DNA of 64,000 nt, taken from positions 6,223,857 through 6,287,856 of the forward strand of contig CBDCXR010000004.1 in the NCBI GenBank assembly GCA_965223845.1, written 5' to 3'. The notes beneath the pieces are model-generated. The model was not told the DNA's origin. It ran no database searches and was given only the letters and a program-made list of their open reading frames with translations. Source of the DNA: Planctomycetota bacterium (GTDB lineage: Bacteria; Planctomycetota; UBA8108; SXIK01). Shown one piece after another: positions 18,027 to 18,296 of this stretch (position 1 is its first letter; each line of letters begins with the position of its first letter). The translations under genes and the position numbers were made by a program.

Positions 18027-18296
18027 CACCACGAAGGGCACGAAGGACACGACGAGAAGAGATCGTAGAGAGGAAGAATGGAGTGTTACGAAACTAATGA
18101 GTTACGAGTAGTTCTACGAGTTAGTTCCCGAGGCAAAGCGGAGCAGCATCGGTAGCTTTCCGCTTGCCGAACATCGACTCGTCGCGGCAAGCGTACGCAC
18201 ACTCACTCACACACACACACACACACTCTCTCTCTCTCTCTCTCTCTCTCTCTCTCAATTCTTTCTTCCTTCGTGTCCTTCGTGCCCTTCGTGGTG
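18027..18296. mobile_element. MITE-like element or large hairpin: 26-bp perfect inverted repeats flanking a ~218-bp lower-GC core with a dinucleotide microsatellite
   Basis: Left arm caccacgaagggcacgaaggacacga at 18027-18052. Its exact reverse complement tcgtgtccttcgtgcccttcgtggtg is at 18271-18296. The core holds short direct repeats (gttacga.., acgagt(t)ag) and an imperfect hairpin ggcaaagcgga...tccgcttgcc. The right arm lies in the last codons of the FG-GAP gene and encodes HHEGHEGHEG. Confidence 0.35.
18209..18256. repeat. Dinucleotide microsatellite (AC)9(TC)15
   Basis: cacacacacacacacacactctctctctctctctctctctctctctctc read directly from the sequence. It starts at the stop codon of the minus-strand FG-GAP gene 18255..20099, so it is transcribed as (GA)n in that 3' UTR. 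Confidence 0.9.

What the first reader, a model, noticed from the sequence alone, without database searches (positions are those of the whole stretch)
18027..18296. Lower-GC island with 26-bp perfect terminal inverted repeats and an (AC)9(TC)15 microsatellite, overlapping a gene 3' end
Exact inverted copies of caccacgaagggcacgaaggacacga bracket ~218 bp of much lower GC than the surroundings. The island contains short direct repeats, an imperfect internal hairpin and a 48-bp dinucleotide microsatellite. The right arm supplies the last codons (HHEGHEGHEG) and stop of the FG-GAP gene 18255-20099. The left arm sits ~120 bp upstream of the lipoprotein gene starting at 17907. This has the look of a MITE-like insertion that remodelled a gene C-terminus and a neighbouring promoter. 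Long pure dinucleotide tracts are rare in GC-rich bacteria and are classic slipped-strand (phase-variation) substrates. Here the tract is in a 3' UTR / promoter-distal position.
Basis: seen in the sequence. Interest (0 to 1): 0.55.

Follow-up and report, generated by a model that had tools for sequence, protein, structure and literature searches.

The report
Cargo-less copy of widespread hairpin cassette
The inverted repeat is real and is an empty copy of a hairpin-shaped DNA cassette that, in many bacterial phyla and some phages, normally wraps a small nuclease-like gene (GxxExxY) and that I could not find described anywhere I searched.

Summary
A perfect 27-nt inverted repeat (18026-18052 / 18271-18297) encloses 218 bp of 50% GC in a 66% GC window. 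The core contains (CA)9(CT)15. The element supplies the last 13 codons and the stop of the FG-GAP gene.

The arms are not private to this genome. Each is TCAC plus three 9-nt-phased CACGAAG heptamers. The same arm, with the same outer boundary and the same arms-facing-inward arrangement, occurs in at least 119 genome stretches from many phyla, in 34 viral stretches and on cyanobacterial plasmids.

In 46 of 73 metagenomic loci these arms sit tight against the start and stop codons of a ~123-aa GxxExxY (PD-(D/E)XK) gene. Heptamer variants always match between the two arms. The cassette is inverted exactly at the arms between two orthologous loci. Hairpin copies are gained or lost between related genomes. 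They usually lie just after a stop codon.

The window holds an ORF-less member at the end of an ABC–PDZ–FG-GAP operon.

"MITE-like" is partly right. The family is dispersed, low in GC and turns over. However, I found no target-site duplication and no transposase.

The microsatellite is peculiar to this copy. Function and mobility mechanism remain inferred. There is no Rfam match and no literature hit by sequence.

The parts
18026..18052 (.). Left arm: TCAC + CACGAAG-GG-CACGAAG-GA-CACGA. On the transcribed (-) strand this is the 3' arm of the stem.
   Evidence: pair I1, 27 nt, 100% complementary; fits the family consensus in alignment A2.
18271..18297 (.). Right arm, the exact inverse of the left arm. 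On the (-) strand it is the 5' arm and encodes (D)HHEGHEGHE of the FG-GAP protein.
18053..18270 (.). 218-bp core, 50% GC, with no credible ORF and no similarity to GxxExxY. Together with the arms it folds into one long irregular hairpin.
   Evidence: GC; no GxxExxY similarity; MFE -136.4 and -129.9 kcal/mol, z -8.0 and -10.4.
18053..18085 (+). Purine-rich inner flank next to the left arm. It partly pairs with the pyrimidine-rich stretch 18256-18270 and with the CT tract, forming a second tier of the stem.
   Evidence: pair I14: 18071-18085 with 18256-18270, 80%; a purine-rich inner flank is a family trait.
18103..18127 (.). 12-nt direct repeat, two copies (TACGAGTTAGTTC).
18132..18191 (.). Imperfect internal hairpins (ggcaaagcgga...tccgcttgcc; ttgccg...cggcaa).
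   Evidence: Read from the sequence; paired in the predicted folds.
18208..18255 (.). (CA)9(CT)15 microsatellite, (GA)15(GT)9 on the transcribed strand. Private to this copy.
   Evidence: 0 of 29 other ORF-less family members carry a perfect short tandem repeat of 14 nt or more.
18255..20099 (-). FG-GAP/VCBS-repeat gene, the last gene of an ABC-ABC2-PDZ-FG-GAP-FG-GAP operon. Its last 13 codons and stop (18255-18296) lie inside the element.
   Evidence: operon synteny in locus L236.
17035..17934 (-). Start is the ATG at 17907 or the GTG at 17934. It has no Pfam match.
18121..18258 (-). 45-aa TTG-initiated frame that opens just inside the 5' arm, where cargo ORFs start in full cassettes. It is mostly a translation of the microsatellite and is probably not a gene.
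   Evidence: position compared with the cassettes.

Best explanation
Shown:
- The 272-bp feature (18026-18297) is an ORF-less member of a large family of palindromic cassettes found across many phyla.
- The family's arms are (T/A)nAC or TCAC followed by two or three 9-nt-phased heptamers, CA[C/T]RRAG plus 2 variable nt. The arms face inward and enclose a lower-GC interior.
- In full-length members the arms sit tight against a ~123-aa GxxExxY (PD-(D/E)XK, PF13366/TIGR04256) gene. The 5' arm ends at the start codon and the 3' arm begins 2-10 nt after the stop.
- Cassettes lie just downstream of a host gene, mostly in the same direction as it.
- The cassette can invert at the arms, and copies are gained and lost between related genomes.
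- In this window a cargo-less copy sits on the 3' end of the last gene of an ABC-PDZ-FG-GAP operon. It supplies that gene's final 13 codons and stop.

Inferred:
- When the operon is transcribed, the two arms pair into a 27-31-bp perfect duplex that closes a 218-nt structured loop.
- This is the kind of duplex that RNase III cuts in 23S rRNA intervening sequences and in phage T7 mRNAs. It would process or stabilise the operon's 3' end and separate it from the downstream lipoprotein gene.
- In full cassettes the 5' arm, three Shine-Dalgarno-like GAAGG units, would act as the cargo's ribosome-binding site, and the 3' arm would sequester it.
- The window copy is a decayed or deletion derivative. 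Its purine/pyrimidine-rich inner flank expanded by slippage into the (CT)15(CA)9 tract.

How the family spreads is unknown. One untested possibility is the GxxExxY nuclease acting in trans on empty hairpins.
For: Family membership:
They come from Acidobacteriota, Planctomycetota, Verrucomicrobiota, Chloroflexota, Pseudomonadota, Desulfobacterota, Gemmatimonadota, Bacteroidota and others.
- The outer flank is conserved: A at -2 in 89 of 125 arms, C at -1 in 87 of 125. The inner flank is purine-rich.
- 55 adjacent arm pairs face inward against 6 facing outward.
- The window arms align without gaps to the 106-pair alignment A2.
- The interior has lower GC than its locus in 25 of 29 ORF-less members, by 0.10 on average.
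- Other ORF-less members have cores of 166-289 nt.

Cargo:
- The ORF inside the L116 arms matches TIGR04256 GxxExxY at E = 5e-44.
- 46 of 73 metagenomic GxxExxY loci are bracketed by arms, and only 3 show no arm.

Arms co-vary: CACGAAG/CTTCGTG 79, CATGAAG/CTTCATG 12, CACAGAG/CTCTGTG 8, CACGGAG/CTCCGTG 1, of 106 pairs. 89% of cells are paired, 18 pairs carry double changes, and 0 of 500 shuffles reach this. G.U exceeds A.C by 34 to 17 on the ORF's sense strand.

Placement:
- Of 33 hairpins with both neighbours called, 14 lie between convergent genes, 16 between same-direction genes and 3 between divergent genes. They are mostly 15-60 nt after a stop codon.
- The nearest upstream gene runs in the same direction as the cargo in 31 of 37 loci.

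Dynamics:
- L229 and L233 share the same flanks and arms, but the interior is inverted.
- L189 carries extra hairpins and arm arrays that are absent from the orthologous L207.
- No hairpin locus is orthologous between species.

Folding: MFE -136.4 kcal/mol (z -8.0) on the transcribed strand.

The hairpins sit in gaps between same-direction phage tail genes, so transcription must read through them.

The closest precedent is the Coxiella 23S intervening sequence: a 28-bp terminal stem, a small ORF in the loop, cleavage by RNase III, and lower GC than the host (PMC4990558).
Against: - No experiment or transcript data bear on the RNA stem, on RNase III cleavage or on any effect on the neighbouring genes.
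- Co-variation between arms is equally expected if both ends bind the same protein, as transposon TIRs do.
- The 2-nt spacers pair in only about half of cases. That fits recognition of the heptamers at least as well as a selected continuous helix.
- The G.U excess is modest.
- The window core shows no trace of a GxxExxY gene, so 'decayed cassette' is an inference. It could instead be an independently propagated empty hairpin with unrelated filler.
- Only 4 of 119 motif-selected genome loci carry the gene or a fragment of it.
- The copy number in the source genome is unknown, and the window holds only one copy.
- Gene placement and orientation statistics rest on a crude ORF-based gene call.
- A minority of the motif hits are coding 9-mer repeats unrelated to the family: an Hfq tail, the N-terminus of pyruvate phosphate dikinase (my reading of its sequence, not tool-checked), and Streptomyces ORFs.
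Confidence: 0.6

Rival explanations
1. Classical MITE: a non-autonomous deletion derivative of an insertion sequence. Its 27-bp terminal inverted repeats are transposase-binding sites, and it was inserted by cut-and-paste transposition.
For: - Perfect terminal inverted repeats, a low-GC interior and strong hairpin potential.
- The same arms occur in hundreds of places and in several copies per genome. One Vicinamibacterales MAG (metagenome-assembled genome) has at least 6 copies with related cores.
- Copies are gained and lost between related genomes.
- Conserved heptamers with free spacers look like repeated protein-binding sites.
Against: - No consistent target-site duplication at any tested boundary offset.
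- No transposase or other recurrent gene beside or inside any of the 119 genome loci.
- The only recurrent cargo is a 123-aa PD-(D/E)XK protein of unknown function.
- The arms abut the cargo's start and stop codons, and the cargo points the same way as the upstream gene in 31 of 37 loci. A transposon end has no reason to do either.
Confidence: 0.15
2. Invertible switch (inverton): the 218-bp core flips by recombination between the perfect arms. Flipping changes what is presented to the lipoprotein gene and swaps the FG-GAP tail between ...HEGRKN* and ...HDEKRS*.
For: - Perfect 27-bp inverted repeats 119 nt upstream of a surface-type gene.
- Both orientations give a short in-frame tail followed by a stop (read).
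- A family member is inverted exactly at its arms between orthologous loci.
- The window arms are among the best-matched of 106 pairs (1 mismatch or fewer in 15 of 106). This is compatible with ongoing exchange between the arms.
Against: - No recombinase among the window ORFs that were scanned.
- No promoter-like site in the core.
- The one inversion seen is between different organisms whose flanks are about 83% identical. It shows evolutionary flipping, not a population-level switch.
- Most family members have loops of only 10-100 nt, which leaves nothing meaningful to invert.
Confidence: 0.1
3. A home-grown regulatory hairpin (terminator or attenuator) that evolved in place at the operon end, with no relation to any mobile or horizontally spread element.
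For: - It sits at the 3' end of an operon, where family members also sit.
- It has a very stable fold.
Against: - No U-tract and no terminator-like site.
- The same 31-nt arm, with its boundary, recurs across many phyla, in phage contigs and on plasmids.
- GC is 16 points below both flanks.
- Homologues lack the tail.
- Family hairpins sit inside phage structural operons that must be read through.
Confidence: 0.07
4. An integron attC site or orphan gene cassette recombined by an integron integrase.
For: - In the family the outer boundary often reads YYnAAC ... GTTnRR, resembling the attC R''/R' boxes.
- Some loci show arrays of hairpins alternating with short segments.
- The taxa overlap those known to carry chromosomal integrons (my own knowledge, not tested here).
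Against: - The window element has TCAC...GTGA, not AAC...GTT.
- Its stem is perfect, without the unpaired central spacer or extrahelical bases that define attC.
- The cargo lies inside the hairpin rather than between hairpins in 46 of 73 loci, against 2 of 73.
- The arrays examined are tandem duplications with homologous spacers.
- No integrase was found in the window.
Confidence: 0.03
5. Assembly artefact at a repeat.
For: Inverted repeats combined with a long dinucleotide tract are error-prone for assemblers and polishers. The tract length cannot be verified without reads.
Against: - The architecture matches more than 100 independently assembled natural elements, including finished isolate genomes: Herpetosiphon aurantiacus DSM 785 and an Anabaena cylindrica PCC 7122 plasmid.
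- The deposited annotation of the source genome calls the same ORF end.
Confidence: 0.03

Closest known systems
23S rRNA intervening sequences (IVS) carrying an S23p/four-helix-bundle ORF (Coxiella, Leptospira, Salmonella)
   Same: - A 28-bp terminal stem formed by inverted repeats.
- A small ORF of unknown function in the loop.
- An element of roughly 430 nt.
- GC lower than the host.
- A sporadic, horizontally acquired distribution.
- Described as a selfish element.
- Stem cut by RNase III (PMC4990558).

Full family members here have the same plan: a stem of about 27 bp and a ~123-aa ORF in the loop.
   Different: - IVSs sit in helices 9, 25 or 45 of 23S rRNA. These elements sit after protein-gene stop codons, and the window contains no rRNA.
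- The cargo here is a GxxExxY PD-(D/E)XK protein, not S23p.
- The arms here are built from 9-nt-phased Shine-Dalgarno-like heptamers.
- RNase III cleavage has not been tested.
- The window copy has no ORF.
Bacterial MITEs that reshape genes (Correia/NEMIS in Neisseria, RPE in Rickettsia, ERIC)
   Same: These comparisons rest on my own knowledge of those elements. They are short, non-coding, hairpin-forming repeats with terminal inverted repeats. They lie close to genes, are co-transcribed, and sometimes add residues to ORFs.
   Different: - Those families are confined to a genus or family and have target-site duplications or known parent IS elements.
- This family spans many phyla.
- It shows no duplication.
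- It has a nuclease-like gene, not a transposase, as its full-length form.
REP / REPIN elements mobilised by RAYT transposases
   Same: Both are dispersed and occur in inverted pairs that form a hairpin. Both lie at 3' ends and between convergent genes, and both are multi-copy.
   Different: - Each REP is itself a short palindrome with a GTAG head and is tied to a RAYT gene (my own knowledge).
- The arms here are not self-complementary.
- No recurrent neighbour gene exists here.
RNase III processing hairpins between phage T7 genes
   Same: Both are long duplexes in gaps between same-direction genes that are read through. Family hairpins occupy such gaps in a myovirus-like tail module.
   Different: The T7 sites are not a conserved sequence family shared across hosts. 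Processing has not been shown here.
Invertons (invertible promoters flanked by inverted repeats)
   Same: Both are a short segment flanked by inverted repeats, upstream of a surface-type gene. A family member is found in both orientations at orthologous loci.
   Different: There is no invertase gene, no promoter, and no evidence of mixed orientations within a population.

Membership tests
   Window arms are CACGAAG-GG-CACGAAG-GA-CACGA(AG/CG). They align without gaps to 105 other arm pairs.
   The window has TTCAC|CACGAAG ... CTTCGTG|GTGAT. In the family, A at -2 in 89 of 125 arms and C at -1 in 87 of 125. 55 adjacent pairs face inward and 6 face outward.
   Window core GC is 0.50 against 0.66. 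In the family 25 of 29 are lower, by 0.10 on average. Inner-flank base profile.
   The window element overlaps the stop of the last operon gene. Family members lie mostly 15-60 nt after a stop.
   No similarity in any frame. The window copy belongs to the ORF-less subclass, like other members with 166-289-nt cores.
MITE | Terminal inverted repeats on a short non-coding element | tested here: met
MITE | Target-site duplication flanking the inverted repeats | tested here: not met
   The window flanks ...GGAT / TCAT... carry no direct repeat. Across 105 elements there is no consistent duplication. The one excess found, a 2-mer at offset 6 in 23 elements against 8 expected, is AA/TT/CG composition and palindrome extension.
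MITE | Many copies in the same genome | not testable with these tools
   Only the 64-kb window is available, and it holds one copy. Other genomes do carry several copies.
MITE | A related autonomous element encoding a transposase | tested here: not met
   No recurrent neighbour or cargo other than GxxExxY in the 119 genome loci.
REP/REPIN-RAYT | Each unit is a short imperfect palindrome with a GTAG head, and a RAYT gene occurs in the genome flanked by REPs | tested here: not met
   The arms are direct 9-nt repeats and are not self-complementary. No recurrent neighbour gene.
Integron attC site | R''/R' core sites RYYYAAC ... GTTRRRY | tested here: not met
   The window has ATTCAC ... GTGATC. 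The family only partly fits this consensus.
Integron attC site | Unpaired central spacer and extrahelical bases in the folded strand | tested here: not met
   The window stem is perfect over 27 nt.
Integron attC site | An integron integrase, or an array of distinct cassettes | tested here: not met
   No integrase among the window ORFs scanned, and a single element in the window.
Inverton | Both orientations present in one population | not testable with these tools
   No reads are available. Between species, L229 and L233 carry opposite orientations.
Inverton | A promoter inside the invertible segment and an invertase nearby | tested here: inconclusive
   No sigma-70-like site, but promoters of this lineage may not fit that consensus. 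No recombinase among the ORFs scanned.
23S rRNA intervening sequence | Inserted in a 23S rRNA helix | tested here: not met
   No rRNA or any other Rfam family in the window. The element lies between protein genes.
23S rRNA intervening sequence | A terminal stem of about 28 bp cut by RNase III | not testable with these tools
   The stem is present. Cleavage needs an experiment.
Intrinsic terminator | A short GC-rich stem followed by a U-tract | tested here: not met
   0 terminator-like sites in 17500-18800. The right-hand flank of the family is A-rich, not T-rich.
Phase-variable simple-sequence contingency locus | The repeat lies within an ORF or between promoter elements, so that a length change switches expression | tested here: not met
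   The tract begins at the stop codon and runs downstream of it. It lies about 300-350 nt upstream of the next start, and no promoter was identified.
Phase-variable simple-sequence contingency locus | Length heterogeneity among cells | not testable with these tools
   No reads are available.

The most novel reading that the evidence does not exclude
The window carries an empty member of an undescribed class of selfish cassette that spans many phyla and is also borne by phages. In this reading the cassette is a stem-bracketed mini-gene that parks in the 3' untranslated region of a host gene and rides on read-through transcription. It carries its own ribosome-binding site as three Shine-Dalgarno-like heptamers in the 5' arm, which are silenced by anti-Shine-Dalgarno-like heptamers in the 3' arm. 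It can flip at its arms. It would spread because its GxxExxY PD-(D/E)XK nuclease recognises empty hairpins, in a homing-like manner. This would give the large, function-unknown GxxExxY/PF13366 family a biological role. It would also link these cassettes to the long-unexplained 23S rRNA intervening sequences.
Probability: 0.3. Interest if true: 0.85.

Novelty: new variant of a known kind. Interest (0 to 1): 0.6.

Why it matters
GxxExxY/PF13366 proteins are abundant, horizontally transferred and of unknown function (PMC3424549). The term appears in only three papers of the searchable library.

These genes usually come wrapped in a nucleotide-conserved, co-varying and invertible pair of arms, and empty arms are scattered behind genes in many phyla and in phages. 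That turns an anonymous protein family and a set of "odd inverted repeats" into one testable system.

It also has practical consequences:
- Such elements create spurious or altered C-termini, here HHEGHEGHEGRKN.
- They yield small junk ORFs.
- They are likely to confuse terminator, attC and inverton predictors.

For this locus alone the consequence is modest: a remodelled tail on an FG-GAP protein and a large RNA structure between two surface-protein genes.

Tried and rejected
- **Rfam.** The whole window at gathering thresholds, the element at E ≤ 10, a short family hairpin, and a full cassette gave nothing except generic miRNA-hairpin matches.
- **tRNA and terminator/promoter scans.** Nothing found.
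- **Core as a decayed GxxExxY gene.** tblastn and NCBIfam found no similarity. The 25-aa frame MECYETNELRVV... only superficially resembles a GxxExxY N-terminus, so I rejected it.
- **Literature by sequence or peptide string.** Arm, variant arms, HEGHEGHEG, TKDTKDTK and others gave 0 papers. The 8-mer alone was uninformative. Searches on family names gave only a function-unknown listing.
- **Recurrent neighbour genes around 119 loci.** None found.
- **Orthologous hairpin loci between species.** None found. Only the coding-repeat hits were orthologous.
- **Target-site duplication.** None consistent.
- **Microsatellite as a family trait.** Rejected: 0 of 29.
- **Locating the source genome.** Exact-protein look-ups failed and the cluster carries no accession. 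Other copies in the source genome therefore could not be counted.
- **Close orthologues of the FG-GAP gene.** None above 50% identity exist in the databases, so an empty site could not be recovered.
- **PDB.** No relative of the GxxExxY cargo by sequence.
- **Plasmid and phage BLAST with the arm.** A few unannotated intergenic hits on cyanobacterial plasmids, and chance coding hits in Streptomyces phages.
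Full report
**1. The observation**

- The repeat finder returns arms 18026-18052 and 18271-18297. They are 27 nt, 100% complementary and 218 nt apart.
- The 26-mer occurs nowhere else in the window even with three mismatches allowed, and in none of 100 shuffles.
- Each arm is itself a 9-nt-phased repeat, CACGAAGGN.
- The core is 50% GC, against 66% for the window and both flanks.
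- (CA)9 at 18208-18225 is followed by (CT)15 at 18226-18255. This is the only dinucleotide array in the 64 kb.
- The FG-GAP ORF 18255-20099(-) ends ...GKNDHHEGHEGHEGRKN*. An identical protein from a 7.87-Mb contig has the same end.
- The arm encodes (D)HHEGHEGHE. RKN and the stop come from the core.

**2. The arms are not private to this genome**

They come from Acidobacteriota, Planctomycetota, Verrucomicrobiota, Chloroflexota, several classes of Pseudomonadota, Desulfobacterota, Gemmatimonadota, Bacteroidota and others.

A few hits are coding 9-mer repeats: an Hfq tail in Dyella, a protein whose N-terminus I read as pyruvate phosphate dikinase, and Streptomyces ORFs. Most share more than the 9-mer.
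- The motif is bounded on the outside by (T)TnAAC or TCAC. A is at -2 in 89 of 125 arms and C at -1 in 87 of 125.
- It is followed on the inside by purine-rich sequence.
- It nearly always has just three units.
- Adjacent arms face inward 55 times and outward 6 times. The spacers between facing arms run from 10 to 935 nt.
- The heptamer CACGAAG is what is conserved. The two bases between heptamers vary.

The same arm occurs in 34 IMG/VR stretches. These include the gaps between same-direction genes of a tail module with a tail sheath and a tape measure. It also occurs in unannotated intergenic DNA of Anabaena and 'Nostoc azollae' plasmids.

Rfam has no family for it. The text library has no paper containing the arm or its variants.

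**3. What the arms normally enclose**

Two genome loci carry a ~125-aa ORF between the arms, and the one scanned matches TIGR04256 "GxxExxY protein" at E = 5e-44.

I fetched 80 metagenomic loci that encode relatives of that ORF.
- 46 of the 73 with enough flank are bracketed. The 5' arm ends at or within about 15 nt of the start codon, for example CACGAAGgaCACGAAGagCACGAAGgATG. The inverse arm begins 2-10 nt after the stop.
- 22 show an arm on one side only, 2 lie between hairpins, and 3 show none.
- Some cassettes use other heptamers, and the two arms always agree. Of 106 pairs, CACGAAG/CTTCGTG account for 79, CATGAAG/CTTCATG for 12, CACAGAG/CTCTGTG for 8 and CACGGAG/CTCCGTG for 1.
- On the ungapped alignment A2, 89% of cells pair and 18 of 29 pairs carry double changes. 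No shuffle out of 500 reaches the observed values, and versions with the register slid by 1-3 columns fall to 36-49% paired.

This co-variation shows that the arms evolve as a pair. It does not by itself separate a selected helix from two ends that bind the same protein.
- For heptamer recognition: the 2-nt spacers pair only about half the time.
- For pairing in the sense transcript: there is a modest excess of G.U over A.C on the ORF's sense strand, 34 to 17.

**4. Where they sit and how they change**

These placement figures rest on a crude ORF-based gene call.
- Of 33 short hairpins with both neighbours called, 14 lie between convergent genes, 16 between same-direction genes and 3 between divergent genes. 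They are usually 15-60 nt after the upstream stop.
- The gene upstream of a GxxExxY cassette points the same way as the cargo in 31 of 37 loci.
- No gene family recurs next to the hairpins, and in particular no transposase or integrase.
- No hairpin locus is orthologous between species.

Three comparisons show turnover.
- L229 and L233 have the same flanks (about 83% identical) and the same arms, but the interior, including the ORF, is inverted exactly at the arms.
- L189 and L207 share the same genes. L189 alone has five tandem copies of the 5' arm, an extra empty hairpin after the cassette, and hairpin arrays in the next intergenic gap.
- L205 shows a tandemly duplicated hairpin-plus-spacer unit.

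No consistent target-site duplication flanks 105 elements.

**5. The window copy**

It meets every sequence feature of the family except the cargo: heptamer arms, a TCAC boundary, inward-facing arms, a purine-rich inner flank, a low-GC interior and a position at a gene's 3' end.
- Other ORF-less members have cores of 166-289 nt, with second-tier inverted repeats and central hairpins.
- The window element folds on either strand into one long irregular hairpin. MFE is -136.4 kcal/mol (z -8.0) on the transcribed strand and -129.9 kcal/mol (z -10.4) on the other.
- Its arms are better matched than most. Only 15 of 106 pairs have one mismatch or fewer, and the mode is three to four.
- The core shows no trace of GxxExxY.
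- The microsatellite is not a family trait, being absent from all 29 other ORF-less members. It occupies the pyrimidine-rich side that pairs with the purine-rich inner flank of the other arm. I therefore read it as a local slippage expansion. This is an inference.

The FG-GAP gene is the last gene of an ABC-ATPase / ABC-2 permease / PDZ / FG-GAP / FG-GAP operon. That operon is conserved in a relative, where a different gene follows it. Homologues, at most 50% identical, end about 19 residues earlier and have no His-rich tail. The window contains no other member of the family. None of the ORFs I scanned is a recombinase or a GxxExxY gene.

**6. How it most likely works**

Shown: family membership, the cargo association, paired evolution of the arms, placement behind genes, inversion at the arms, gain and loss, and the remodelled C-terminus.

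Inferred:
- In a transcript that reads out of the operon, the arms form a perfect duplex of 27-31 bp. That is the substrate type cut by RNase III in 23S rRNA intervening sequences. The Coxiella IVS, for instance, has a 28-bp terminal stem, a small ORF in the loop and lower GC than its host, and is described as selfish and horizontally acquired (PMC4990558).
- Such a duplex would process or stabilise the upstream message and separate it from the downstream gene.
- Because family hairpins sit inside phage structural operons, they are unlikely to be strong terminators. No U-tract is present.
- In full cassettes every heptamer ends in a Shine-Dalgarno-like GAAGG, AGAGG or GGAGG. The middle heptamer lies about 8 nt before the ATG (read). 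The 5' arm could therefore serve as the ribosome-binding site, with the 3' arm masking it once transcribed.

How the family spreads is unknown. PF13366 is listed as function unknown with multiple transfers between divisions (PMC3424549). A homing-like role for the nuclease on empty hairpins is a hypothesis only.

**7. Rivals**

- A transposase-driven MITE is weakened by the lack of a duplication and of any transposase, and by arms that sit tight against the cargo ORF.
- An inverton is possible in principle. Both orientations would give a short in-frame tail, RKN* or DEKRS*. But it lacks a recombinase, a promoter and read evidence.
- A home-grown terminator is contradicted by the cross-phylum identity of the arms and by the GC drop.
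- An attC site fails on the core sites and on the perfect stem.
- An artefact is unlikely given more than 100 independent natural counterparts, although the tract length cannot be verified.

**8. Verdict**

The locus itself is a modest relic. The family it points to is apparently absent from Rfam 15 and from the searchable literature, and it ties together the GxxExxY proteins, empty hairpins behind genes, and IVS-like architecture. I could not search subscription journals, so "undescribed" is provisional.

Noticed in passing
window 36474-37046 (tandem 63-bp units at 36706-36975), upstream of parB at 37852-38907: Nine perfect copies of the 16-bp palindrome TGTTCCACGTGGAACA, against 0.01 expected by chance. 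It resembles the parS consensus TGTTNCACGTGAAACA (my own knowledge). Five of the copies lie in a 63-bp tandem array about 0.8-1.4 kb upstream of a complete ParB gene (ParB_N, HTH_ParB, ParB_C). This is probably a clustered centromere, which suggests the window lies near the replication origin.
   Followed up: partly
window 6509-6565: A 9-nt tandem repeat (GGGTCCTCT x3.6 / TCGACGGGG) inside the ORF 6217-8154(-), which has DUF5122 and dockerin matches. It is a coding tripeptide repeat unrelated to the CACGAAG family.
   Followed up: no
L229 437-862 versus L233 1476-1901 (and L232): Orthologous metagenomic loci with flanks about 83% identical carry the same GxxExxY cassette in opposite orientations. 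The breakpoints lie inside the arms.
   Followed up: yes
L189 93-340, 769-838, 1336-1490 versus L207 380-1400: L189 has five tandem copies of the 5' arm at a 54-nt period before the GxxExxY start, plus extra empty hairpins in two intergenic gaps between response-regulator genes. The orthologous L207 lacks these. In one of those gaps it carries a different palindrome built on GTGAGGC repeats.
   Followed up: partly
L205 781-2071: An array of three short CACAGAG-type hairpins at a period of about 225 nt, with homologous spacers, leading into a full GxxExxY cassette. It looks like a tandemly amplified hairpin-plus-spacer unit.
   Followed up: partly
L120 1300-1350 and 1501-1529 (Anabaena cylindrica PCC 7122 plasmid pANACY.02): Beside a CACGAAG arm there is a second 9-nt-phased motif, ACGCAAAG / CCGCAAAGG. 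Both are followed by the same sequence, AGAGAGTTTTAGAGAGTTTTTTC. The heptamer repertoire may therefore be wider than the four types counted here.
   Followed up: no
L127 (IMG/VR contig 3300009549_000023) 916-1045, 1995-2827, 7304-7328, 10009-11635; near-identical contigs L132, L146, L148, L152: A myovirus-like tail module (tail sheath, tape measure) carries CACGAAG hairpins or arms in most of its intergenic gaps. Two phage genes, of 116 aa and 317 aa, are themselves bracketed by a facing pair of arms.
   Followed up: partly
L082 6913-6935 and L085 1677-1701 (Dyella spp.): An ORF whose sequence looks like Hfq (my reading, not tool-checked) ends ...GNGHEGHEGHE and is encoded by the same 9-mer repeat. 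This is a conserved coding occurrence at orthologous loci. It shows that some motif hits are ordinary His/Glu/Gly tails rather than hairpin elements.
   Followed up: partly
window 18255-24506(-) and L236 157-5977: A conserved five-gene operon: ABC ATPase, ABC-2 permease, PDZ protein and two paralogous FG-GAP/VCBS proteins with overlapping stop and start codons. Its function is unknown. The gene that follows differs between relatives.
   Followed up: partly
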